64,000 bases of DNA from Phenylobacterium sp. (GCF_030645195.1 NZ_JAUSLW010000111.1:1885-65884); one strand, 5' to 3'; positions 33,784 to 46,150 are shown, counted from the first letter of the stretch. The notes: generated by a model from the sequence alone, not told the origin. Numbers and translations are program-made.

Positions 33784-34719
33784 ATGCGAGTCATCGGTCA
33801 GGACGAGGTGCGGGAACGGCTGACCTATGAGGTGGCCATTCCCATCGTGCGGGCGGCGATGATCGCGCTCTCAGCCGGGGAGACCCGCCAGCATCTGCGC
33901 TCCATCATCCCCCTGGCCGAGGGCCGGCTGTTCGGCATCATGCCCGGCGCCCTGGGGGAGCGGGCCGCCTTCGGCGCCAAGCTGATCAGCATCTTCCCCG
34001 AGAACTTCGCCAAGGGCGCCCCGTCCCACCAGGGCGTCGTCGTCCTGTTCGACCCCGAGACCGGCGCGCCCATCTGCATCGCCCACGCCGGGGAGGTCAC
34101 CGCCATCCGCACCGCCGCCGCCAGCGCGGTGGCCACCGACGCCTTGGCCCGTCCCGAGGCCACGCGCCTGGCGATCCTCGGCTATGGGGAGCAGGCGCAA
34201 ACTCACCTGCGCGCCCTGCGCCATGTGCGCCCCATCGACCACGTCACGGTCTGGGGGAGATCACCCGAGCGGGCGGCGGCCTTCGCCGCGCGCATGGCCG
34301 CCGAGACCGGCCTGTCGGTGGAGCCCTCCGCCGATGTCGAGCGCGCGGTGGCGGCCGCCGACATCATCTGCACGGTCAGCGGATCGGAGGAGCCGATCCT
34401 GAAGGGCGCCTGGGTGGCCCCCGGAACCCACCTCAACCTGGTGGGCTCCAGCCGCCCCGGCCCCGTGGAGGTGGACGAGGACCTGGTGGCGGCCTGCCGC
34501 TTCATCGCCGACAGCCGCGAGGGGGTGTTGGCCCAGGGGGCGGAGTTCCTCAAGGCCAAGGCTTCGGGCCGCATCGGCGACGACCATGTCGTCGGCGAGA
34601 TCGGGCAGGTGCTGTCGGGCGCCATCCCCGGCCGCCAGTCGCAGGGCCAGATCACCGCCTACAAGTCTCTGGGCCACATCGTCCAGGACCTCGCCAGTGT
34701 CCAGGCCCTATGCCGCTGA
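33784..34719 (+). CDS. Ornithine cyclodeaminase/mu-crystallin family protein
   Basis: TAIRTAAASA, GYGEQA, TAYKSLG. Confidence 0.9.
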   Translation: MRVIGQDEVRERLTYEVAIPIVRAAMIALSAGETRQHLRSIIPLAEGRLFGIMPGALGERAAFGAKLISIFPENFAKGAPSHQGVVVLFDPETGAPICIAHAGEVTAIRTAAASAVATDALARPEATRLAILGYGEQAQTHLRALRHVRPIDHVTVWGRSPERAAAFAARMAAETGLSVEPSADVERAVAAADIICTVSGSEEPILKGAWVAPGTHLNLVGSSRPGPVEVDEDLVAACRFIADSREGVLAQGAEFLKAKASGRIGDDHVVGEIGQVLSGAIPGRQSQGQITAYKSLGHIVQDLASVQALCR

Positions 34720-35250
34720 GACCCGCGACCGCGCCGGCAGGAAGCCTGGCGCCCGCAGCAGGGCGGCGCTGACCAGGGCCACCAGCAGGCCCACCGGGAA
34801 GATCTCGATGAAGGTCATGGCCAGGCGGAACAGCGGGTTGGCGTACTGGGCCCGCATCGTCTCCATGTCGGCCACCGCCTTGGCGTAGGCTGGGCCCGTG
34901 ACGCCGGCGGCGCGCTTGGCCTCCAGGATCTGGGCGATGTACTCGTCCATGAACCGGTAGTCGGTGATCGCCAGATAGATCTCCCACACCGCGACATAGG
35001 CCAGCGAGGCGACAACGGCGATGCCGAGCCCCATCAGGAAGGCCGTGCGGAACCTGATGACTCCGCCGAGCGCCTGGTCGCGGTGCTGTCTCACCCCCAC
35101 CAGGATCGAGGACAGGGCCACCAGCATGATGAGGTAGCCCAGCCACACATTGGAATGCGGCGCGCCGCCGTTGAGCGCGATCGTGCCGATGATGCCTGTG
35201 ATGATGATCAGGCCCGAGATCAGGCCGTAGGTCAGGATGGTGCGGGTCAT
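34708..35250 (-). CDS. DUF4199-like membrane protein
   Basis: Four TM segments, GGVIRFRTAFLMG, periplasmic-type loop YFM..Y. Confidence 0.7.
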   Translation of the reverse strand: MTRTILTYGLISGLIIITGIIGTIALNGGAPHSNVWLGYLIMLVALSSILVGVRQHRDQALGGVIRFRTAFLMGLGIAVVASLAYVAVWEIYLAITDYRFMDEYIAQILEAKRAAGVTGPAYAKAVADMETMRAQYANPLFRLAMTFIEIFPVGLLVALVSAALLRAPGFLPARSRVSAA

Positions 35251-35362
35251 GCCGGTTGCTCCTGTGCTGCACGGCTTGGCCATGAGGGTGCTGGGTGGGC
35301 GGGCGTCAGCCTATCGCCCAAAAGGGTGAGATCGTGCGGATCGTTCTTTTGGCGCGACCGTC

Positions 35363-35776
35363 TCACGGCAGCAGATGCAGGTCGCGAGCCTTGCGCACGG
35401 CCTGGGTGCGACGGCTGACCTCCAGCTTGGCGAACAGGTTGGCGGCGTGGGTCTTCACGGTGTTGGGCGAGACCCCCAGGGTGCGGGCGATCTCCTTGTT
35501 CGACTGTCCGGCCGCCAGCCGCTCCAGGACCTTCACCTCCTGGCGGGTGAGGCCGAGGGAGGTCATGGCTGCGGTATTGGGCTCGAAGGGACCCGGCGCG
35601 TGGCGGGCGTTGAGCCTCCAACCCACCCACACCCCGGCCGCGGCGAAGGCCGCCCCGATTAGCGCAACATAGACCTCCAGCGAGAAGGTCCGCGCCAGGA
35701 ACCGATATTCGAGCCACTGCAGGGCGAAGGCGCCGGCGGCGAGGACCAGGGCCCAGAGCAGGACGGTGCGGGTCAT
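35363..35776 (-). CDS. Membrane-anchored LuxR-type HTH regulator (137 aa)
   Basis: Two N-terminal TM helices, then LTRQE..LAAGQSNKEIA..LGVSPNTVKTH. Confidence 0.85.
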   Translation of the reverse strand: MTRTVLLWALVLAAGAFALQWLEYRFLARTFSLEVYVALIGAAFAAAGVWVGWRLNARHAPGPFEPNTAAMTSLGLTRQEVKVLERLAAGQSNKEIARTLGVSPNTVKTHAANLFAKLEVSRRTQAVRKARDLHLLP

Positions 35777-35784
35777 GGGCCGGC

Positions 35785-36528
35785 CTAGGCGTTCGGTCGG
35801 GCCGGGTTGTGGCCGCCGCCGACATAGCCGAGCGCCGCGGCCTCGCGCACCGCCTGGGAGCGGCCCACCACCCGCAGCTTCTGGGCGGCGTTCTTCAGGT
35901 GGAAGCGGACGGTGGGGGCGGAGATGCGCACCAGTTCGCCGATGTCGGCGTCGGTCTTGCCCGCCGCCGCCCACTTCAGGCACTGGATCTCGCGCCGGGT
36001 CAGGCGCGGGGGCCCGGCCTGGGGCGTGGCGCCCCGGGTGTCGTTGTAGGCGGCGATGAATTTCAGGGCCGCGACGTGTAGGCGTGGGGCGTGGGCCTCG
36101 AACAGGGCCTCCACCGGGACCTGCGGGTCCGGAGTCGCCCAGACCACCGCCCCGATCAGGCCGCCCGGCAGGTAGGTCGGTGCGATGATGGCCCCAGCCA
36201 CCCCGTGGTCGCGGGCCGAGCGGTCCACCGTGATGGCGCTGAGCTGGGGGACCGGCCGCCAGGTCGCGAACCGCCCCTCGGTGAAGAAGAAGGGCTCGGC
36301 CACGTAGCGGGCGGCGAGCACGAAGGGGGTGCGCAGGGCGAAGCCCCGGTCCTTCCAATATTCCAGCTTGGGATCGACCCAGCGGAACAGAGTCTCGGCA
36401 TAGGGCCGGCCGTCGGAGCCCAGCACCGGCTCGGGGCTGGAGAAATCGGCGCTGACGGCGATGAAGGGCAGGCCAAGCTCGGCGCCCAGCCGGGCCACCT
36501 CCTGAGCGTAGCCGTCGATCTCGTTCAT
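35785..36528 (-). CDS. LuxR solo regulator with a non-canonical ligand-binding domain
   Basis: C-terminal LTRREIQCLKWAAAGKTDADIG..TVRFHL; N-terminal domain of about 170 aa; no luxI in the window. Confidence 0.85.
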   Translation of the reverse strand: MNEIDGYAQEVARLGAELGLPFIAVSADFSSPEPVLGSDGRPYAETLFRWVDPKLEYWKDRGFALRTPFVLAARYVAEPFFFTEGRFATWRPVPQLSAITVDRSARDHGVAGAIIAPTYLPGGLIGAVVWATPDPQVPVEALFEAHAPRLHVAALKFIAAYNDTRGATPQAGPPRLTRREIQCLKWAAAGKTDADIGELVRISAPTVRFHLKNAAQKLRVVGRSQAVREAAALGYVGGGHNPARPNA

Positions 36529-36551
36529 GGCGGCTCCTCCCCACGGCTAGA

Positions 36552-36597
36552 CTATCACCGACGATAGCTTGTGCGCGTCCTGGGATTTCGCAAGCCT
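36552..36597 (+). promoter_or_regulatory. lux-box-like site plus promoter 1 (acyl-CoA dehydrogenase)
   Basis: CTATC-ACCGAC-GATAG (CT-N12-AG) abutting TTGTGC-N17-AAGCCT. Confidence 0.65.
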
Positions 36598-36634
36598 GCA
36601 GATGCGCGCCGGTTGGGCGCCGGAGACCGCGCCC

Positions 36635-37837
36635 ATGAACCTCGACCTCAGCGACGACGAGATCGCCTTCCAGGGCGAGGTCCGCGCCTTCCTGGCGGAC
36701 TCCCTGACCCCGGAGCTGCGCCAGGCCGGTCGCCGGGCCACCAGCGTCTTCATGGACAAGATCTACAGCCTGGCCTGGCAGAGGATCCTCCACGCCCGCG
36801 GCTGGGCCGCGCCCTCCTGGCCGGTGGAACATGGCGGCCCCGGCTGGGGCGTGATGCAGAAGGCGATCTTCGCCGCCGAGTGCGCGCGGGCAGGCGCGCC
36901 GAGCTTGGCCCCCATGGGCCTGAAGATGGTGGGGCCGGTGATCATGGGCCACGGGACCCCGGAGCAGAAGGCCCACTACCTGCCGCGCATCCTCTCGGGC
37001 GAGGACTACTGGTGCCAGGGCTATTCCGAGCCCCAGGCGGGCTCGGACCTGGCGGCCCTGGCGCTGAGCGCCGTGGCCGACGGCGACGACTATGTGCTGA
37101 ACGGGACCAAGCTGTGGACCACCCACGCGCACTGGGCCAACCGCATGTTCTGCCTGGTCCGCACAAGAACCGACGGCAAGGCCCAGGCCGGGATCACCTT
37201 CCTGCTGCTGGACATGCAGACCCCCGGGATCAGCGTCCAGCCGATCGTCACCCTGGCCGGCGAGCATGAGGTCAATCAGGTCTTCTTCGACCAGGTCCGC
37301 GTGCCCCAGGCCAACCGCATCGGGGCCGAGAACGCCGGCTGGACCGTCGCCAAGTACCTGCTGGAGTTCGAGCGCGGCGGCGGGTCCGGGCCGGGGCTGA
37401 AGGTGGCCTTGGAGGCGGTCACGGCGCTCGCCCGCGCAGAGGCTGGCGACGGCGGGAACCGGCTGATCGACGATCCGGCCTTCCGGTCCAGGCTGGCGCG
37501 GGCGGCCTGCGCCGTCGAGGCCGTGGAGATGACCGAGCATCGGGTGCTGGCGGCCCTGGCGGCGGGGAACAATCCAGGCCCGGCCTCCTCCATGCTGAAG
37601 ACCCAGGGGACCGAGACCCTGCAGATGATCGACGAACTGGCGATGGAGGGCGCCGGCGCCTACGCCGCCGTCGACCAGATCGAGGCCCGCGCCCCGGGAT
37701 CGAACCTCGACTGGGTGGGGCCCGAGCACGCGCTGACGGTCACGGCCCGCTATCTCAACGACCGCGCCGCCTCGATCTATGGCGGCTCGAACGAGATCCA
37801 GCGCGACATCATGGCCCGGCTGGTGCTGGGCCTCTGA
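36635..37837 (+). CDS. Acyl-CoA dehydrogenase
   Basis: WCQGYSEPQAGSDLA, LNGTKLWTT, SIYGGSNEIQR. Confidence 0.93.
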   Translation: MNLDLSDDEIAFQGEVRAFLADSLTPELRQAGRRATSVFMDKIYSLAWQRILHARGWAAPSWPVEHGGPGWGVMQKAIFAAECARAGAPSLAPMGLKMVGPVIMGHGTPEQKAHYLPRILSGEDYWCQGYSEPQAGSDLAALALSAVADGDDYVLNGTKLWTTHAHWANRMFCLVRTRTDGKAQAGITFLLLDMQTPGISVQPIVTLAGEHEVNQVFFDQVRVPQANRIGAENAGWTVAKYLLEFERGGGSGPGLKVALEAVTALARAEAGDGGNRLIDDPAFRSRLARAACAVEAVEMTEHRVLAALAAGNNPGPASSMLKTQGTETLQMIDELAMEGAGAYAAVDQIEARAPGSNLDWVGPEHALTVTARYLNDRAASIYGGSNEIQRDIMARLVLGL

Positions 37838-37857
37838 TCCAGGTTCCGTAAGGGACC

Positions 37858-37903
37858 CTATCAGCTTCGATAGCTTGTGCGCTCACCCGGTCTTCGCGAG
37901 TTT
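37858..37903 (+). promoter_or_regulatory. lux-box-like site plus promoter 2 (TonB receptor-ligase operon)
   Basis: CTATC-AGCTTC-GATAG abutting TTGTGC-N17-GAGTTT; 24 of 40 positions shared with promoter 1. Confidence 0.65.
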
Positions 37904-37960
37904 CGCCAGCATGACGGGACGCCCGGCAGAAGGCGTCCGCACCCTGGGAGGGACAGAGCA

Positions 37961-40393
37961 ATGACCAAGATGCACACGCTGCGCGCCGTGCTGGCTATGA
38001 GTGTTTCGGCGGCCGCCATGGCGGCCCACGCCCCGGCCTTGGCCCAGACCGCGCCGGAAGATGACAACACGGTGGAGACCCTGGTGGTCACCGCCCAGCG
38101 CCGCGAGGAAACGGCCAACACCATCGGCATGGCCATCCAGGCCTTCCGTGGCGAGCAGATGCGCGAACTGCACGTCACCACGGTCAAGGACCTGGCCAGC
38201 GTCGTGCCCAGCTTCAGCGTCTCGCAGAGCTATCAGGGGGTGCCGACCTACACCCTGCGCGGGATCGGCTTCAACACCATCAACCTCTCGGCCACCTCCA
38301 CCGTCGGCACCTATGTCGACGAGGTCGCCTACGCCTATCCGATGATGAACACCGGGCCGCTCATGGACCTGGAGCGCGTCGAGGTGCTCAAGGGGCCCCA
38401 GGGCACCCTCTACGGCCGCAACACCACCGCGGGCCTGATCGACTTCGTCACCAACAAGCCCACCAACAGCTTCGAGGCGGGCCTGACCGCCGAGGTCGGC
38501 AACTACAAGACCCACAATTTCGAGGGCTTCGTCAGCGGGCCCCTGGCCGAGGGCGTCCAGGCGCGCCTGGCCTTCCGCACCGACGACAGCGATGAGGGCT
38601 GGCAGCGCAGCAACACCCGCGGCGAGAAACTGGGCGAGATCCACCGCTACGGCGTCCGCGCCTCGCTCGCCCTGCAGCCCACCGAGGCGCTCAGCATCGA
38701 CGCCTCGCTCACCCTGTGGCGCAACAAGTCCGACACCGTGGCCGCGCAAGGCATCGGCTTCACCCCGGCCACGGCGGCCAGCCCCTTCAACGCCGCGGGC
38801 CTGACCAGCTACATCGCCACCCACATGCCCACAGACGCCACCCAGGCCGACTGGGCGCCCTATGCCCGTCGCGCCACCGACATCGGCACGGGCCTGGGCA
38901 TCGGCGGGCCGCTGCGGGAGAACAACGACTTCACCGGCGTCAAGGTGAAGGTCGCCTACGACATCGGCGAGCACATGCGCCTGGTGTCGCTCACCAACTA
39001 TAACGAGCTCACCCGCGACGCGACCTTCGACTGGAGCGGCGCGCCCTACGAGATCCTGGTCCAGAAGGCGGCCGGCCACATCGAGTCCATCGCCGAGGAA
39101 TTGCACCTCGAGGGCGAGACCGACACGGTGAACTGGCTGGTGGGCCTCTATTATGGCCAGGATACGCTCCTCGACTCCAACCGCACCATGCTGGGCGACA
39201 ACGCCAATGTCGGCACGATCCGGTTCTACACCAACAGCCTGCTGCTCTCGCCGTTCAACTCCGGGGGCTACACCGCCCTGCAGGCCAGCCAGGCCTTCCG
39301 CACCTATCGCGACCAGGGCGACATCGACGTCACGACCCAGAGCGTCTTCGCCAACGCCGACTGGCGGCTGAACGACCAGTTCAAGCTGACCGCCGGCCTG
39401 CGCTACACCAAGGACAAGCAGGACTACGCCGGCTGTTCGCGCGACTTCAACGGCAACATGTTGCCCAACGTCAACATCACCAACCGCTTCCTGTTCTTCG
39501 CGGCCCACGGCCTGGTGGCGCCGATCTCCCAGGGGCAGTGCAACACCTTCAACCCCACCACCCACAGCTTCGGCCTGGTGACCTCCACCATGGACGAGGA
39601 CAACTTCGCCTGGCGGCTGGCCCTGAATTGGACGCCGGATCCCAACCTCCTGGTCTATGGCTCGGTGTCACGCGGGGCCAAGGCCGGGGTCACCCCGATC
39701 AACGCGGCCAACATCTCCACCCAGAACGCGCCGGCCACCCAGGAACTGCTGCTGGCCTACGAGGTGGGCCTCAAGGCCGCCCTCTTCGAGCATCGCGTCC
39801 AGGCCAACGCCTCGCTCTTCTACTACGACTACGAGGACAAGCAGCTCAGCGTCTATTTCGCCGACCCGATCTACACGGCCCTGGCCCGCCTGGCCAACGT
39901 GCCCAAGTCCATGGCCTACGGCCTGGACGGCGACGTCACCTGGCGGATCAATTCCGACTTCACGGCCATCGCCTCGGGCACCTGGCTGCATACCGAGGTG
40001 CAGGACTATGTGGGGATCAATTCGGCGGGCAAGCCGGCGAGCTTCGATGGCGCGCCCTTCCTCTACAGCCCCAAGTTCCAGGGCAGCCTGACCCTGCTCT
40101 ACAAGCACGACCTGAACGACAAGCTGGGGATCCAGGCGGCGGTCAACGGCCGCTACCAGTCCAAGTCCCACGCCGACCTGGAGGGCAATCCGCTGTTCGC
40201 CATCCCGGAATACGGCCTGCTGAACGCCAGCCTCGGCCTGCATTCCAGCGACGACCGCTGGGAGGTCTCGCTTTGGGGCCGCAACCTGACTGACGAATAT
40301 TACTGGTCGGCGGTCAGCAGCAACGCCAACGTGGTGGTGCGCTTCCCCGGTCAGACCCGGACCTTCGGCGCCTCCTTCACCGTCAAGTACTAG
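37961..40393 (+). CDS. TonB-dependent receptor
   Basis: ETLVVTAQRR, LERVEVLKGPQGTLYGRN, C-terminal VKY. Confidence 0.95.
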   Translation: MTKMHTLRAVLAMSVSAAAMAAHAPALAQTAPEDDNTVETLVVTAQRREETANTIGMAIQAFRGEQMRELHVTTVKDLASVVPSFSVSQSYQGVPTYTLRGIGFNTINLSATSTVGTYVDEVAYAYPMMNTGPLMDLERVEVLKGPQGTLYGRNTTAGLIDFVTNKPTNSFEAGLTAEVGNYKTHNFEGFVSGPLAEGVQARLAFRTDDSDEGWQRSNTRGEKLGEIHRYGVRASLALQPTEALSIDASLTLWRNKSDTVAAQGIGFTPATAASPFNAAGLTSYIATHMPTDATQADWAPYARRATDIGTGLGIGGPLRENNDFTGVKVKVAYDIGEHMRLVSLTNYNELTRDATFDWSGAPYEILVQKAAGHIESIAEELHLEGETDTVNWLVGLYYGQDTLLDSNRTMLGDNANVGTIRFYTNSLLLSPFNSGGYTALQASQAFRTYRDQGDIDVTTQSVFANADWRLNDQFKLTAGLRYTKDKQDYAGCSRDFNGNMLPNVNITNRFLFFAAHGLVAPISQGQCNTFNPTTHSFGLVTSTMDEDNFAWRLALNWTPDPNLLVYGSVSRGAKAGVTPINAANISTQNAPATQELLLAYEVGLKAALFEHRVQANASLFYYDYEDKQLSVYFADPIYTALARLANVPKSMAYGLDGDVTWRINSDFTAIASGTWLHTEVQDYVGINSAGKPASFDGAPFLYSPKFQGSLTLLYKHDLNDKLGIQAAVNGRYQSKSHADLEGNPLFAIPEYGLLNASLGLHSSDDRWEVSLWGRNLTDEYYWSAVSSNANVVVRFPGQTRTFGASFTVKY

Positions 40394-40403
40394 GGACCAG
40401 CGT

Positions 40404-42011
40404 ATGAGTGTTGCGGAACCGGTCGCCGCCGTCGATTTCGACCAGATGCCCACCCTGGGGGACATCCCGCGCTACCACGCGCGGGAGCGTCCCTCGGCGA
40501 CGGCTCTGGTGTTCGAGGGGCGGGAGACCGACTTCGCCACATTCGAGCGCCGCACCAACCAGGCCGCCAACGCCCTGATTGCCCAGGGGGTCCGCAAGGG
40601 CCAGCGGATCGCCTATGTGGGCAAGAACAGCGACCACTATTTCGAGCTGCTGTTCGGGGCGGCCAAGATGGGGGCGGTGATGACCCCCATCGGCTGGCGG
40701 CTGGCGCCGCCGGAAATGGCCTACATCCTGGGGGACTCCGGCGCGCCGGTGGTCTTCATCGGCCCGGAGGTGATGGACCAGGCGCCGGCCATTCTCGAGG
40801 GCCTGGATCCCGCCCCGGCCGTCATCGCCATGGAGGCCGCCAACGCCGGTGGCGCTTCGGTCTATGAGGCCTGGCGCGACGCCGCGCCCGACACCGACCC
40901 GGGCGTCGTCATCGCCCCCTCCGACGTGGCGGTCCAGCTCTACACCTCGGGCACCACCGGCCGGCCCAAGGGGGCCATGCTGTCCCACGACAACATCCTG
41001 TCGGGCCGTCGCCGCTCGGCCGAGGCCAACATGCCCTGGAACAGCTGGGGGCCCGACGACGTCAGCCTGGTGGCCATGCCGGTGGGCCATATCGGCGGCA
41101 CCGGTTGGGGGATCGTAGGCCTCTACAACGGCGCCAAGGGCGTCGTGGCCCGCGAGTTCGACCCCTTCAAGGTGCTGGACTTCATCGAGGGTGAGCGCAT
41201 CTCCAAGATGTTCATGGTGCCGGCCGCCCTGCAGATCGTGGTGCGCCAGCCCCGGGCCCGCGAGGTCGACTTCAGCCGGCTGAAATACATCCTCTACGGC
41301 GCATCGCCGATCCCGCTGGATCTGCTGCGGGAGTGCATGGAGGTGTTCGGCTGCGGCTTCTGCCAGCAGTACGGCATGACCGAGACCTGCGGCACCATCG
41401 TCTACCTGCCGCCGGAGGATCACGACCCGGCCGGCAACGCCCGCATGCGCGCCGCCGGCCTGCCCATGCCCGGCGTGGAGCTGAAGATCATCGACGAGGC
41501 CGGGGCGAGCCTGCCGGCCAATACGGTGGGGGAGGTGGCCATCCGCTCCAGCTCCAACATGGCCGGCTACTGGCGCCTGCCCGAGGCCACCGCCGCCACG
41601 GTGGGCGCCGACGGCTGGCTGCGCTCGGGCGACGCGGGCTATCTGGACGAGGCCGGCTACCTCTTCATCCACGACCGGGTGAAGGACATGATCATCTCCG
41701 GGGCCGAGAACATCTATCCCGCCGAGGTGGAGAGCGCCGTCTACGGCCATCCGGACGTGGCCGAGGTGGCGGTGATCGGGGTGCCCGACGACACCTGGGG
41801 CGAGGCGGTCAAGGCGGTGGTGGCGCTGAAGCCCGGCGCGACCCCCGATCCGGCCGGCATCATCGCCTTCGCCCGCACCCGTATCGCCGCCTTCAAGGCG
41901 CCCAAGACCGTCGACTTCATCGAGGCCTTGCCCCGCAACGCCTCGGGCAAGATCCTGCGCCGCGAACTGCGCGAGCCCTATTGGGCTGGCCGCGCACGCC
42001 GAGTGAACTAG
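40404..42011 (+). CDS. Long-chain fatty acid-CoA ligase family protein
   Basis: [35 protein letters not shown]. Confidence 0.93.
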   Translation: MSVAEPVAAVDFDQMPTLGDIPRYHARERPSATALVFEGRETDFATFERRTNQAANALIAQGVRKGQRIAYVGKNSDHYFELLFGAAKMGAVMTPIGWRLAPPEMAYILGDSGAPVVFIGPEVMDQAPAILEGLDPAPAVIAMEAANAGGASVYEAWRDAAPDTDPGVVIAPSDVAVQLYTSGTTGRPKGAMLSHDNILSGRRRSAEANMPWNSWGPDDVSLVAMPVGHIGGTGWGIVGLYNGAKGVVAREFDPFKVLDFIEGERISKMFMVPAALQIVVRQPRAREVDFSRLKYILYGASPIPLDLLRECMEVFGCGFCQQYGMTETCGTIVYLPPEDHDPAGNARMRAAGLPMPGVELKIIDEAGASLPANTVGEVAIRSSSNMAGYWRLPEATAATVGADGWLRSGDAGYLDEAGYLFIHDRVKDMIISGAENIYPAEVESAVYGHPDVAEVAVIGVPDDTWGEAVKAVVALKPGATPDPAGIIAFARTRIAAFKAPKTVDFIEALPRNASGKILRRELREPYWAGRARRVN

Positions 42012-42042
42012 AATAGCGCCGAGAGTGAGAGAGGCCCCAGCC

Positions 42043-42429
42043 ATGACCGTCAGCCTTCGCCGCCCGCCCACCACCCTGACCATCGGCCAGCTGTGCCGTG
42101 AGTTCGAGGTGACCCCCCGGACCCTGCGCTATTACGAGGAGCAGGGCTTGCTGGAGCCGGCCCGCCGCGATCAGCAGCGGATCTATTCCCGCCGCGACCG
42201 CGCCCGGTTGCAGCTAATCCTCCGCGGCCGCCGGGTGGGCCTGTCGCTCGCCCAGATCCGCCAGGTGCTGGACCTGCACAATCCCGAGGACGGCGACGCG
42301 GTCCAGAACGCCGTGGCCCTGCGCGCCTTCCAGCAACGGATCGCCGCCCTGGAGCAGCAGCGCGCCGAGGTGATCGGCGCCATCGAGAGCCTGCAGGCCG
42401 CCTGCGAACGCCTGGAGGCGCGGCTCTAG
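42043..42429 (+). CDS. MerR family regulator (LiuR-like)
   Basis: TIGQLCREFEVTPRTLRYYEEQGLL..R..Y HTH plus a coiled coil. Confidence 0.9.
   Translation: MTVSLRRPPTTLTIGQLCREFEVTPRTLRYYEEQGLLEPARRDQQRIYSRRDRARLQLILRGRRVGLSLAQIRQVLDLHNPEDGDAVQNAVALRAFQQRIAALEQQRAEVIGAIESLQAACERLEARL
42368..42429 (+). repeat. Left direct repeat (merR 3' end)
   Basis: 60/62 identical to 44173-44234; weaker similarity extends back to 42323. Confidence 0.95.
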
Positions 42430-44117: not shown

Positions 44118-44172
44118 GATCGATTTGCGCCCTCCAGCGCCGGATCGCCGTCCCCGCAGCCGCCGCGCGAGA

Positions 44173-44234
44173 AGGTGATCGGCGCCATCGAGAGCCTGCA
44201 GGCCGCCTGCGAACGCCTGGAGGCCAGGCTCTAG
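44173..44234 (+). repeat. Right direct repeat (non-coding copy of the merR 3' end)
   Basis: Its terminal CTAG contains the minus-strand stop of the chemoreceptor. Confidence 0.95.
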
Positions 44235-45817
44235 AACTCCTCCCAGGCGTCCTGGGCCGCGCCGCCGTAGCTGGCGGCGAGCCTTTGGGTCAGGGCTCGG
44301 GCCGGAGAGGCGGGCGGTTTCGCCGGCGCGGGGATTCGGACCGTCGCCGGACCGCCCTGTGACGCCGTCCCCACCCGGAACCGGGTCATCAGGTCCGTGA
44401 GGGCCGCCGTCTCCGCCTTGAGGGCGTGGGTCGCGGCGGTGGACTGCTCCACCATGGCCGCGTTCTGCTGAACCACATGATCCATCTGGTTGACCGCGGC
44501 GTTCACCTCCGAGAGTCCGGTGGCCTGCTCCTGGGCCGAGGCCGAGATTCCGGAGATCACCACGTCGATCTCCGCCACCTTGCTGGCGATCGCCTGCAGG
44601 GCCTGGCCGGTCTCGCCCACCAGGGACACCCCCTGGTCGACCTGCTGACCCGAGGCCGAGATGAGGGTCTTGATCTCCTTGGCGGCCTCGGCCGAGCGCT
44701 GGGCGAGCGCGCGGACCTCCGACGCCACCACGGCGAAGCCGCGGCCGGCGTCCCCGGCCCGGGCGGCCTCGACGCCGGCGTTGAGGGCCAGGAGGTTGGT
44801 CTGGAAGGCGATCTCGTCGATCACCCCGATGATCTGGCTGATCTGGCGCGAGGAGTCCTCGATCTGCCCCATGGCGCCGACCGCCAGGGCGACCACCTCG
44901 CCGGAGCGCTCGGCCTGGCCCTTGGCCTCGGCGACGGCGCTGCTGGCCTGGCGTGCGCCGTCGGCGGTGTTGGACACCGTGGCGGTGATCTCGTCGAGGG
45001 CTGCGGCGGTCTGCTCCAGGCCCGCGGCCTGCTGCTCGGTCCGGCGCGACAGGTCGTCGGAGGCGTGCGCCAGCTCGTCGGAACTGGCGCCGATGGCCGA
45101 GGTCGTGCGGGCCACCGCGGCCATGGTGTCCTCCATCTGGGCGACGGCGGCGTTGAAGTCGCGGCAGAGCTGCAGGTACTCCTCCGGCAGGTCCTCTGGC
45201 ATGCGGTAGGTGAGGTCGCCCGCGGCCAGGGCGGCCATGCCCGCGCCGACCGAGCCCACCACCACGGCGCGCTCCTGGGCCAGGGTCTCGGCCTGGGCCG
45301 TCAGGCGTGCGACTTCGGCGGCCTCCAGATAGACCGAGATCGCATAGTCCATGTCCAGCAGGGTGGCCTTGGCCAGGGCGCCAAGCTCCGCGGCGACCTC
45401 CGAGACCTTGGGCCCCTTGGCGCCGAATCCGCCCTTCGGCCAGCGGGCCTTGAGGACCGCCCCGATCAGGGAGCTCAACACCAGGGCGTAGCCGCCGATG
45501 TACCAGCGGGGCTCCAGGCCGATGCGGGCGTGGGTCTCCCCCACCGTGGTGACGGCGCGCACATAGGTCTGGTCGAACTGGCCGCTGGAGATCGTCTCCC
45601 AGTGGCCGACCTGGCGGCTCTTGGCGCTGGCGACGTGACCCTGGCTGGTGAAGAACTTCCGGGTCTCGGGGTAGGATTGAATCTGAGCGTAGAATGCGTC
45701 GAGGGCGCTTGGCAGCTCCCCCATGATCACCGGCTTGGTCCGGCGGAGGTTCGCCTGGGCGTCGGCGTCCAGTTGCATGAAGTTCAAACGGTCGGCCAGG
45801 GAGTCACTTTGAGACAT
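44231..45817 (-). CDS. Globin-coupled methyl-accepting chemotaxis protein (HemAT-like, soluble)
   Basis: [19 protein letters not shown] proximal His motif; [28 protein letters not shown] signalling tip. Confidence 0.92.
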
Positions 45818-46150
45818 GACGGCTTCCTCAGGTTGATCTGCCCATGCCGCGCGATTAATATTAACAGAACAAAAATACAGACTTTTCACTCAACCTATTG
45901 GTTAGAATTGATATGCACAAACATAGATTTATATATCACAAGATATAACGTCGGTATGGATTGGCGTTGAGTTCTCATCTCTCGCCTTAGGCGAAGCTCT
46001 TCCGTTATGACGTCGCGAATCATCTTGTATATATCTGAGGATATAGAGACGTGATGGGCTTCCCGTGCGACGAATCGGCCATTAACCATTGCATGCATGT
46101 GGTCTTTGTGATTTCGAGTGCCCAATGTCGGCTGCCTCACTTTGACGGAT

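What the first reader, a model, noticed from the sequence alone, without database searches (positions are those of the whole stretch)
35785..42429. Non-AHL LuxR solo with a two-promoter regulon for uptake and CoA-dependent oxidation of an unknown ligand
Seen in sequence: the 40-bp blocks 36552-36591 and 37858-37897 share the pattern CTATC-N6-GATAGCTTGTGCGC-N10-TTCGC. That is a palindrome abutting an identical TTGTGC (-35-like), with an xAxxxT hexamer 17 bp later. One block precedes the acyl-CoA dehydrogenase; the other precedes the TonB receptor and acyl-CoA ligase. The LuxR gene is divergent, about 106 bp away. Established: CT-N12-AG is the las/rhl-box core, and LuxR activators bind just upstream of the -35. 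The ligand domain reads YWKDRGFALRTP where AHL receptors have W-x3-Y-x(7-8)-DP, and no luxI is present. Inference: this LuxR senses a non-AHL, probably acyl or lipid-like, molecule and induces its import, CoA activation and first oxidation step. This would be signal eavesdropping or quenching, or a catabolic repurposing of a quorum-sensing fold.
Basis: partly seen in the sequence, partly recalled or inferred. Interest (0 to 1): 0.82.

Follow-up and report, generated by a model that had tools for sequence, protein, structure and literature searches.

The report
Non-AHL LuxR solo lipid-catabolic switch
A quorum-sensing-type receptor that has lost its AHL-binding residues sits next to two promoters carrying the same conserved DNA box, and in many Caulobacter-group species it most likely switches on import and CoA-dependent breakdown of an unidentified fatty-acid-like compound.

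Summary
Two exact CTATC-N6-GATAG-CTTG boxes lie at 36552 and 37858. They are the only strong matches in the 3.9-Mb Phenylobacterium genome.

The box is conserved at 111 distinct promoter sites in 80 orthologous loci (Caulobacter, Phenylobacterium, Hyphomonas, Henriciella). Its geometry is fixed: box, one base, TTG (-35), 17 nt, xAxxxT (-10). The box centre is near -45.

The box tracks the LuxR gene, not the target genes:
- Perfect 20-mers number 7 in 8 LuxR+ genomes and 1 in 93 LuxR- genomes.
- Acyl-CoA dehydrogenase (ACAD) orthologs in LuxR- genomes lack the box in 7 of 8 cases.
- The operon's MerR gene and a neighbouring membrane GerE regulator are absent from most box-bearing loci.

The protein folds like TraR, RhlR and SdiA. 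Profile alignment replaces the AHL-contact residues (W57K, Y61W, D70T, G113A, and W85F in the global alignment). No LuxI gene is found in the genome.

Best reading: a ligand-dependent class-II-type activator, and probable autorepressor, of a FadL/FadD/FadE-like entry module (TonB receptor, long-chain acyl-CoA ligase, ChsE4/PimC-like ACAD). Ligand, DNA binding and direction of control are untested. No description was found in the literature searched. I rate it a new variant of a known kind.

The parts
35785..36528 (-). LuxR-family solo, 247 aa: N-terminal autoinducer-binding-type domain plus C-terminal GerE helix-turn-helix
   Evidence: Pfam PF03472 scores 29.7 bits (cut-off 23) and PF00196 scores 55 bits. 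The AlphaFold2 model has pLDDT 87. Top Foldseek hits are TraR, RhlR, QscR, LasR and SdiA. AHL-pocket residues are replaced.
36552..36567 (.). Box 1: CTATCACCGACGATAG, a CT-N12-AG dyad. It lies 23 nt from the luxR ATG and directly upstream of the ACAD -35.
   Evidence: It scores 28.5 bits. A box is found upstream of luxR in 68 of 80 loci.
36569..36597 (+). Predicted ACAD promoter: -35 TTGTGC (36569-36574), 17-nt spacer, -10 AAGCCT (36592-36597). The predicted transcription start is near 36604.
   Evidence: Information-content profile of 111 orthologous sites: TTG is invariant, A at -10 position 2 is 77%, T at position 6 is 81%, and A is enriched at +54. The generic sigma-70 scan finds nothing here, which means a weak promoter.
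36635..37837 (+). Acyl-CoA dehydrogenase (ACAD), 400 aa, ChsE4/PimC-like
   Evidence: All three ACAD Pfam domains match. The best NCBIfam hit is pimC_large at 352 bits, below its cut-off of 624. The best PDB hits are 4x28_A and 6wy9_A.
37858..37873 (.). Box 2: CTATCAGCTTCGATAG, 20 nt after the ACAD stop codon
   Evidence: It scores 32.5 bits. Of 129 box sites in orthologous loci, 62 precede a TonB-dependent receptor.
37875..37903 (+). Predicted promoter of the TonB-receptor operon: -35 TTGTGC (37875-37880), 17-nt spacer, -10 GAGTTT (37898-37903). The predicted transcription start is near 37910.
   Evidence: Same geometry as the ACAD promoter.
37961..40393 (+). TonB-dependent outer-membrane receptor, 810 aa, with no N-terminal signalling (STN) domain
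   Evidence: Pfam Plug plus TonB_dep_Rec_b-barrel. It is not an equivalog of any named receptor.
40404..42011 (+). Long-chain fatty-acid--CoA ligase, 535 aa, starting 10 nt after the receptor stop codon
   Evidence: Pfam AMP-binding plus AMP-binding_C. NCBIfam PRK06187 scores 631 bits against a cut-off of 476.
42043..42429 (+). MerR-family regulator, the last gene of the operon (the alternative GTG start is at 42025). It has no metal-binding Cys pair.
   Evidence: Pfam MerR_1 and MerR-DNA-bind. Sequence read. A MerR ortholog follows ACAD or the ligase in about 20 of the 80 loci. Its 3' end is duplicated at 44152-44234 around hipBA.

Best explanation
The 247-aa protein is a LuxR-type one-component receptor. 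It keeps the AHL-receptor fold and the LuxR-type DNA-binding domain, but it has lost the AHL-contact residues and has no cognate synthase.

Proposed mechanism:
- As a dimer, it binds the 16-bp dyad C-CTATCAnTTCCGATAG (a CT-N12-AG box). The box sits one base upstream of a weak -35 (TTGnnn), with a 17-nt spacer and a cAnnnT -10. This places the box centre near -45.
- With its non-AHL ligand bound, it recruits RNA polymerase in the class-II manner of LuxR, TraR and LasR.
- It thereby switches on two transcription units: the ACAD gene, and the TonB receptor - acyl-CoA ligase - MerR operon.
- Box 1 lies only 23 nt from the luxR start codon, downstream of any possible luxR promoter. The same binding event therefore probably represses luxR itself.

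The induced genes form an entry module analogous to E. coli FadL/FadD/FadE: outer-membrane uptake, trapping as a CoA thioester, and a first alpha,beta-dehydrogenation. The substrate would be a hydrophobic carboxylic acid, such as a long-chain, dicarboxylic, isoprenoid or steroid-like acid. The inducer is probably that compound or its CoA ester.

Shown: the genes, the boxes, their conservation and geometry, box-LuxR co-occurrence, the fold, loss of the AHL residues, and solo status.
Inferred: DNA binding, activation, autorepression, and the class of ligand and substrate.
For: - Both boxes are exact and are the only high-scoring sites in the genome.
- In 80 loci retrieved with the LuxR protein, luxR is divergent from an ACAD or a TonB receptor in nearly all.
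- 68 of 80 loci have the box upstream of luxR.
- Of 129 box sites, 100 precede ACAD or TonB-receptor genes, with the CTTG end facing the gene.
- 111 distinct sites give a fixed promoter geometry.
- Co-occurrence in 101 Caulobacteraceae genomes: LuxR is present in 8. Sites with at most 1 mismatch occur in 6 of 8 LuxR+ genomes and 14 of 93 LuxR- genomes (Fisher p = 6.5e-4). Perfect sites number 7 in LuxR+ genomes and 1 in LuxR- genomes.
- ACAD orthologs of 72-79% identity in LuxR- genomes lack the box in 7 of 8 promoters examined.
- The box is present in Caulobacter-type loci that have no MerR or ligase gene within 7 kb.
- The neighbouring membrane GerE gene occurs in only 3 of 80 loci.
- Paralogs of 33-36% identity in a distant alphaproteobacterium also have CTCTC-N6-GAnAG dyads next to them.
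- Fold.
- Pocket, in TraR numbering: W57->K54 (variable in the family), Y61->W58, D70->T67, P71->P68, G113->A113. W85->F82 holds in the global profile alignment only; HMMER places it on a conserved W90. The helix-turn-helix residues E178, L182 and G188 are kept.
- No LuxI gene. The same search finds LuxI in 13 of 81 alphaproteobacterial genomes.
- Additional box-preceded genes elsewhere are all lipid or CoA chemistry: acyl-CoA ligase, enoyl-CoA hydratase, a Baeyer-Villiger-type monooxygenase, MpaB/Lcp-type oxygenase, and an ACAD paralog.
Against: - There is no experimental or transcript evidence. No RNA runs cover this organism or a close Caulobacter locus.
- The box centre near -45 is 2-3 bp further upstream than the classical lux box at -42.5.
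- 12 of 80 loci have no recognisable box upstream of luxR, and 2 of 8 LuxR+ genomes have no site with at most 1 mismatch.
- One genome scored LuxR- (G139) has a box-like site with 2 mismatches before its ACAD ortholog.
- The mapping of W85 is ambiguous: F82 by global profile alignment, W90 by HMMER.
- The model is least confident (pLDDT 62-74) exactly in the remodelled segment, residues 51-70.
- The closest solved relatives of the ACAD are, from my knowledge of those structures, alpha subunits of heterotetramers. No beta subunit is encoded in the locus.
- The substrate class rests only on family-level annotation.
Confidence: 0.6

Rival explanations
1. The LuxR still binds the box, but it acts as an EsaR/ExpR-type apo-repressor. 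Without ligand it sits on the box and blocks the adjacent -35, and the ligand releases it.
For: - The box abuts, and would sterically overlap, the -35.
- Box 1 lies inside the luxR leader or promoter, so repression of luxR is likely in any case.
- Catabolic regulons for fatty acids are usually derepressed by acyl-CoA, as with FadR, PsrA and DesT (my own knowledge).
Against: - The -35 and -10 hexamers are poor. The generic scan finds no promoter, as expected for an activator-dependent promoter.
- The spacing between box and -35 is invariant across 111 sites. That implies a fixed protein-polymerase contact. A repressor would tolerate variable placement.
Confidence: 0.17
2. The box belongs to another regulator, and the LuxR solo controls something else. 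Candidates are the operon's MerR, the membrane GerE protein downstream of luxR, a TetR, or an unlinked factor.
For: - MerR follows ACAD or the ligase in about 20 loci.
- A second GerE-type helix-turn-helix protein is encoded at 35363-35776.
- TetR genes are preceded by the box in two loci.
Against: - The box is present in many loci without MerR or TetR.
- The membrane GerE gene is present in only 3 of 80 loci.
- MerR operators lie between -35 and -10 of promoters with 19-20-nt spacers (my own knowledge). Here the box is upstream of -35 and the spacer is 17 nt.
- The box tracks LuxR presence or absence across 101 genomes.
- CT-N12-AG is the LuxR-family dyad type.
Confidence: 0.07
3. The receptor still senses AHLs or another acyl signal made by neighbouring bacteria, and induces their uptake and destruction (eavesdropping or quenching).
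For: - The protein has the AHL-receptor fold.
- An acyl-CoA ligase and an ACAD could consume a released acyl chain. RpfB-type ligases turn over DSF signals (my own knowledge).
Against: - W57 and D70, which hydrogen-bond the AHL, are replaced, and position 57 is not even conserved within the family.
- No lactonase or acylase is found in any locus.
- An ACAD is not needed for cis-2-enoic DSF signals.
Confidence: 0.05
4. The module is not catabolic. The ligase and ACAD make a 2-enoyl lipid tail for a secreted amphiphilic metabolite, such as a siderophore, and the TonB receptor re-imports it.
For: The TonB receptor's weak family matches are to siderophore receptors. Some lipid-tailed siderophore pathways use a ligase and an ACAD (my own knowledge).
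Against: - No NRPS, NIS or other synthetase occurs in any of the 80 loci.
- Other box-controlled genes are hydratases and oxygenases typical of degradation.
- No Fur-type context was noticed (no Fur-box search was run).
Confidence: 0.06

Closest known systems
AHL-responsive LuxR-type activators (LuxR, TraR, LasR, RhlR) and their lux/tra/las-rhl boxes
   Same: - Same two-domain architecture and fold.
- The helix-turn-helix triad E178/L182/G188 is conserved.
- The operator is a CT-N12-AG dyad just upstream of, or overlapping, the -35 of a weak promoter.
   Different: - At most two of the six hallmark ligand-domain residues are kept: P71, plus W85 if HMMER's W90 mapping is right.
- There is no LuxI gene.
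- The dyad is 16 bp and centred near -45, rather than 18-20 bp centred at -42.5.
- The targets are catabolic and uptake genes, not signal synthesis or group behaviours.
Non-AHL LuxR solos: plant-associated OryR/XccR/PipR/NesR, and Photorhabdus PluR/PauR
   Same: - A solo receptor with an altered pocket that controls adjacent genes.
- Y61 is replaced by W, as in the plant-associated group.
- PipR also depends on an adjacent uptake system (my own knowledge).
   Different: - The plant-associated solos keep D70 and have W57M. Here D70 becomes T/A/S and position 57 is variable.
- There is no adjacent proline iminopeptidase gene.
- Uptake is through a TonB receptor rather than an ABC transporter.
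- The regulon is CoA-dependent catabolism.
- The clade is restricted to Caulobacterales-type alphaproteobacteria.
E. coli FadR regulon entry steps (FadL, FadD, FadE)
   Same: Same logic: an outer-membrane importer, an acyl-CoA ligase and the first ACAD are co-regulated by one ligand-sensing factor.
   Different: - The regulator has a LuxR fold, not GntR.
- It is probably an activator, not a repressor.
- The importer is a TonB-dependent receptor, not a FadL barrel.
- The ACAD is ChsE4/PimC-like, not FadE-like.
ChsE4-ChsE5 (PDB 4x28) and Tcur3481-3483 steroid ACADs; PimC/PimD pimeloyl-CoA dehydrogenase
   Same: These are the best sequence relatives of the ACAD.
   Different: Those enzymes are alpha2-beta2 heteromers (my own knowledge). 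No beta-subunit gene lies in this or the orthologous loci. The NCBIfam score is below the equivalog cut-off, so the substrate cannot be transferred.

Membership tests
LuxR-type quorum-sensing receptor family (Autoind_bind + GerE) | N-terminal autoinducer-binding-type domain (PF03472 fold) | tested here: met
   PF03472 scores 29.7 bits against a cut-off of 23. The AlphaFold2 model has pLDDT 87. The top 30 Foldseek hits are TraR, RhlR, QscR, LasR, SdiA and CviR. Profile-profile probability is 100%.
LuxR-type quorum-sensing receptor family (Autoind_bind + GerE) | C-terminal GerE helix-turn-helix with conserved E178, L182, G188 (TraR numbering) | tested here: met
   PF00196 scores 55 bits. E180, L184 and G190 are invariant in 39 family members.
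AHL-binding LuxR receptors | Six conserved ligand-domain residues: W57, Y61, D70, P71, W85, G113 | tested here: not met
   Profile alignment against 20 canonical alphaproteobacterial receptors gives K54, W58, T67, P68, F82 and A113. HMMER alternatively places W85 on W90. At most 2 of the 6 residues are kept.
AHL-binding LuxR receptors | Cognate LuxI-type synthase in the genome | tested here: not met
   PF00765 is absent from the 92%-complete genome. The same search finds it in 13 of 81 alphaproteobacterial genomes. HdtS- and LuxM-type synthases were not searched.
AHL-binding LuxR receptors | Binds a dyad (CT-N12-AG type) near -35 and activates transcription | not testable with these tools
   Sequence evidence only: a conserved dyad abutting the -35 at 111 sites, and co-occurrence with the gene.
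Plant-associated-bacteria LuxR solos (OryR/XccR/PipR) | W57M and Y61W with the other four residues kept; adjacent pip gene | tested here: not met
   Y61W is present. However, position 57 is K or variable, D70 is T/A/S and G113 is A. The neighbours are an ACAD and a TonB receptor, not pip.
MerR/LiuR-type regulators (for the operon's last gene) | N-terminal MerR helix-turn-helix plus coiled-coil dimerisation helix; metal-binding Cys residues for the metal sensors | tested here: inconclusive
   The MerR_1 and MerR-DNA-bind domains are present. There is no Cys pair. All NCBIfam equivalogs score below cut-off. No MerR-type operator was found in either promoter.
PimC / ChsE4-type acyl-CoA dehydrogenases | Equivalog-level similarity and a partner beta subunit | tested here: not met
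   TIGR03204 scores 352 bits against a cut-off of 624. No second ACAD gene lies in the locus.

The most novel reading that the evidence does not exclude
This is the founding example of a clade of at least 130 species of Caulobacterales LuxR solos in which the quorum-sensing receptor fold has become a nutrient sensor. It would bind a bulky lipid acid, or its CoA thioester, that enters through a dedicated TonB-dependent receptor. It would act through a well-defined 16-bp operator and a two-promoter minimal regulon. The ligand of both an orphan LuxR clade and an orphan TonB-receptor family would then become directly screenable.
Probability: 0.45. Interest if true: 0.72.

Novelty: new variant of a known kind. 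Interest (0 to 1): 0.6.

Why it matters
LuxR solos are very common, but few have a known ligand, operator or regulon. This case offers three things together:
- a sharply defined operator (C-CTATCAnTTCCGATAG-CTTG);
- a minimal regulon of two promoters;
- a ligand domain that is strongly conserved yet not AHL-like, with invariant F48, W50, Y57, W58, D60, R74, E78, P79, W90 and R91.

Orthologs occur in cultured strains, including Phenylobacterium conjunctum, P. aquaticum, Caulobacter radicis, C. zeae, C. hibisci and Hyphomonas oceanitis. A reporter screen for the ligand is therefore straightforward.

It would also be an example of TonB-dependent uptake tied to CoA-dependent lipid catabolism in oligotrophic alphaproteobacteria. 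And it would show a quorum-sensing fold reused as an ordinary catabolic regulator.

Tried and rejected
- Transcript evidence. No usable RNA runs hold the window or the Caulobacter vibrioides T5M6 locus; only metagenomic DNA contigs were found. Transcription starts therefore remain predictions.
- Literature. Four full-text searches found no description of this LuxR clade, its box or its regulon. The hits checked were irrelevant.
- Third perfect palindrome in the genome (C71:24367). It lacks the CTTG flank and overlaps a gene's 3' end, so I judged it chance.
- Half-site at C129:6975. It lies 26 nt before a HerA/DUF853-like ATPase gene, so I judged it chance.
- Membrane GerE protein at 35363-35776 as an alternative box binder. 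Rejected, because it is present in only 3 of 80 loci.
- MerR operator. No dyad was found in either promoter, and a TGACGTCA-type search was uninformative.
- Covariation between the LuxR recognition helix and half-site variants. PTVRFH is invariant. The 'FHMRNAADKM' clade tends to have GCTAG or GTTAG right half-sites, but this is confounded by phylogeny, so it is inconclusive.
- All-against-all clustering of neighbourhood ORFs. The result was noisy because of spurious high-GC ORFs. It showed only that LuxR, ACAD and the TonB receptor form the core.
- Generic sigma-70 and terminator scan. It found nothing in 36400-38100.

Full report
**What is there.** The window comes from a groundwater Phenylobacterium assembly of 3.94 Mb that is 92% complete. 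Pfam confirms the gene content:
- a LuxR-family protein with Autoind_bind (29.7 bits, cut-off 23) and GerE domains at 35785-36528, minus strand;
- an acyl-CoA dehydrogenase (ACAD) from the ATG at 36635 to 37837;
- a TonB-dependent receptor with Plug and barrel but no STN domain, 37961-40393;
- an AMP-dependent ligase at 40404-42011. NCBIfam places it above cut-off in the long-chain-fatty-acid--CoA ligase subfamily PRK06187;

The receptor, ligase and MerR genes are separated by 10 and about 31 nt, so they are most likely one operon.

**The observation.** CTATC-N6-GATAG occurs only twice in the window. There are three perfect copies in the genome, and about one is expected from base composition. 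The third copy lacks the CTTG flank and overlaps a gene's 3' end. A weight matrix built from orthologous sites scores the two boxes 32.5 and 28.5 bits, against 18.2 for the next site in the genome. In this genome the regulon is therefore these two promoters.

**Conservation.** A search of one genome per GTDB species with the LuxR protein found 133 relatives, and the best 80 loci were fetched. They come from Phenylobacterium, Caulobacter, Hyphomonas, Henriciella, Terricaulis and related MAGs, at 54-99% identity.
- In nearly all loci luxR is divergent from an ortholog of the ACAD or from a TonB receptor. A ligase (about 17 loci) or a MerR (about 20 loci) follows in subsets.
- A box with at most 2 half-site mismatches lies upstream of luxR in 68 of 80 loci.
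- Of 129 sites matching the 20-nt pattern, 100 lie just upstream of ACAD or TonB-receptor genes with the CTTG end facing the gene.
- Aligning 111 distinct sites without gaps gives C-CTATCAnTTCCGATAG-C-TTG. After 17 nt comes a hexamer cAagcT in which A2 (77%) and T6 (81%) are the only conserved positions. A is enriched seven to eight bases further on.

It puts the box centre near -45. The hexamers are too poor for a generic sigma-70 scan to find, which fits an activator-dependent promoter.

**Who binds the box.** Four tests point to the LuxR protein.
1. In an even sample of 101 Caulobacteraceae genomes, the LuxR is present in 8. The 20-mer with at most 1 mismatch occurs in 6 of those 8, against 14 of 93 others at background frequency (Fisher p = 6.5e-4). 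Perfect copies number 7 against 1.
2. ACAD orthologs of 72-79% identity exist in genomes without the LuxR. Seven of the eight such promoters examined have no box (best match 5-7 mismatches). LuxR+ genomes do have one. The box therefore follows the regulator, not the target gene.
3. The other regulators in the window are not conserved with the box. MerR is missing from the Caulobacter-type loci. A membrane-anchored GerE protein that I found directly downstream of luxR (35363-35776) occurs in only the three closest relatives.
4. Paralogs of 33-36% identity in a distant alphaproteobacterium carry similar CTCTC-N6-GAnAG dyads beside them.

CT-N12-AG is also the known core of the las-rhl box (my own knowledge).

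**The ligand domain.**
- The family is tightly conserved. Invariant residues in 39 sequences include F48, W50, Y57, W58, D60, F63, R74, E78, P79, W90 and R91.
- An AlphaFold2 model has pLDDT 87, and its weakest stretch is residues 51-70. Its best structural matches are all AHL receptors.
- I collected 20 canonical Autoind_bind proteins from alphaproteobacterial genomes and aligned the two profiles. TraR W57, Y61, D70, P71, W85 and G113 correspond to K54, W58, T67, P68, F82 and A113. HMMER alternatively puts W85 on W90.
- Position 54 is not even conserved within the family.
- The helix-turn-helix triad is intact.
- The genome has no LuxI gene, and the same search detects LuxI in 13 of 81 alphaproteobacterial genomes. 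This is the only Autoind_bind gene in the genome.

The protein is therefore a true solo with a pocket that is not AHL-like.

**What the regulon does.** The ligase is a long-chain fatty-acyl-CoA ligase by curated threshold. The ACAD is closest to PimC and to PDB entries 4x28 and 6wy9. From my own knowledge these are ChsE4 and Tcur3483, alpha subunits of steroid-type ACADs. The ACAD is below the equivalog cut-off, and no beta subunit lies nearby. The TonB receptor matches no named receptor.

In other species the same box also precedes a second acyl-CoA ligase, an enoyl-CoA hydratase operon, a Baeyer-Villiger-type flavin monooxygenase, MpaB/Lcp-type oxygenases, TetR genes and further TonB receptors. 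The common theme is uptake and CoA-dependent oxidation of a hydrophobic acid. This is an analogue of the FadL/FadD/FadE entry steps. The compound itself cannot be named from sequence.

**Mechanism, with status.**
- Shown: the genes, the operator, its geometry, its co-inheritance with the LuxR gene, the fold, the remodelled pocket and the solo status.
- Inferred: a LuxR dimer binds the dyad. With ligand bound, it activates both promoters from a class-II-like position. Box 1 lies 23 nt from the luxR ATG, between the ribosome-binding site and any possible promoter, so the same binding probably represses luxR.
- Open: the role of MerR. No MerR-type operator was found.
- Rivals: an apo-repressor mode, another binding protein, AHL sensing, and a biosynthetic role. 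These are listed with odds in the rival explanations.

**Comparison and novelty.** The protein is a member of the LuxR receptor superfamily by fold and by helix-turn-helix. It fails the residue and LuxI tests for AHL receptors. It also fails the residue and neighbour tests for the plant-associated solos. Four full-text searches found no description of this clade, box or regulon. I rate it a new variant of a known kind: a non-AHL LuxR solo whose conserved regulon is a TonB-dependent, CoA-dependent catabolic entry module.

**Verdict.** The 'eavesdropping or quenching' alternative has no support. Interest 0.6.

Noticed in passing
window 35363-35776 (-) and 34708-35283 (-): A 137-aa protein with two N-terminal transmembrane helices and a GerE helix-turn-helix (73 bits) starts 9 nt after the luxR stop codon. 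A DUF4199 membrane protein follows it. ORF listing hides the gene inside a spurious 788-aa frame. The gene occurs beside the LuxR solo only in the three closest relatives.
   Followed up: yes
window 42347-42429 and 44152-44234: The last 83 nt of merR are repeated at 89% identity 1.8 kb downstream, bracketing the hipBA genes.
   Followed up: partly
L162 (genome G139), about 90 nt upstream of its ACAD ortholog: A box-like site, CTATCAGGTTCGCGAGCTTG, lies in a genome with no LuxR ortholog at E <= 1e-30. The divergent neighbour is a Baeyer-Villiger-type monooxygenase that looks frameshifted. This could be a relic site or a more divergent regulator.
   Followed up: partly
L159, L160, L161, L163 (one genus, LuxR-negative), upstream of ACAD orthologs: These promoters share a different conserved element, ...CTAGGCTAGCGCTAAGTTTGACGTCAGAAAATGGCGCC.... 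This suggests another regulator controls the same ACAD in that genus.
   Followed up: no
L119:1259, L123:1000, L124:1277 (genome G041): Three paralogous LuxR-type genes (33-36% identity to the query) lie in one distant alphaproteobacterium that also has LuxI genes. Each has a CTCTC-N6-GAnAG-like dyad nearby, and one lies next to a TonB receptor.
   Followed up: partly
L137 and L154 (genome G143): A Caulobacter-group genome has four perfect boxes. Two lie at the luxR locus. One precedes an unlinked acyl-CoA ligase and one precedes a Baeyer-Villiger-type monooxygenase. The regulon is therefore larger in some species.
   Followed up: partly
G000 C215:12096-13304 and C225:16383-17582: The window's genome has two ACAD paralogs (60% and 50% identity) elsewhere. 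Neither region produced a PWM site above the 14-bit reporting threshold.
   Followed up: no
window 44231-45889 (-): A protoglobin domain is fused to a methyl-accepting chemotaxis signalling domain (a globin-coupled sensor). It lies just beyond the hipBA islet.
   Followed up: no
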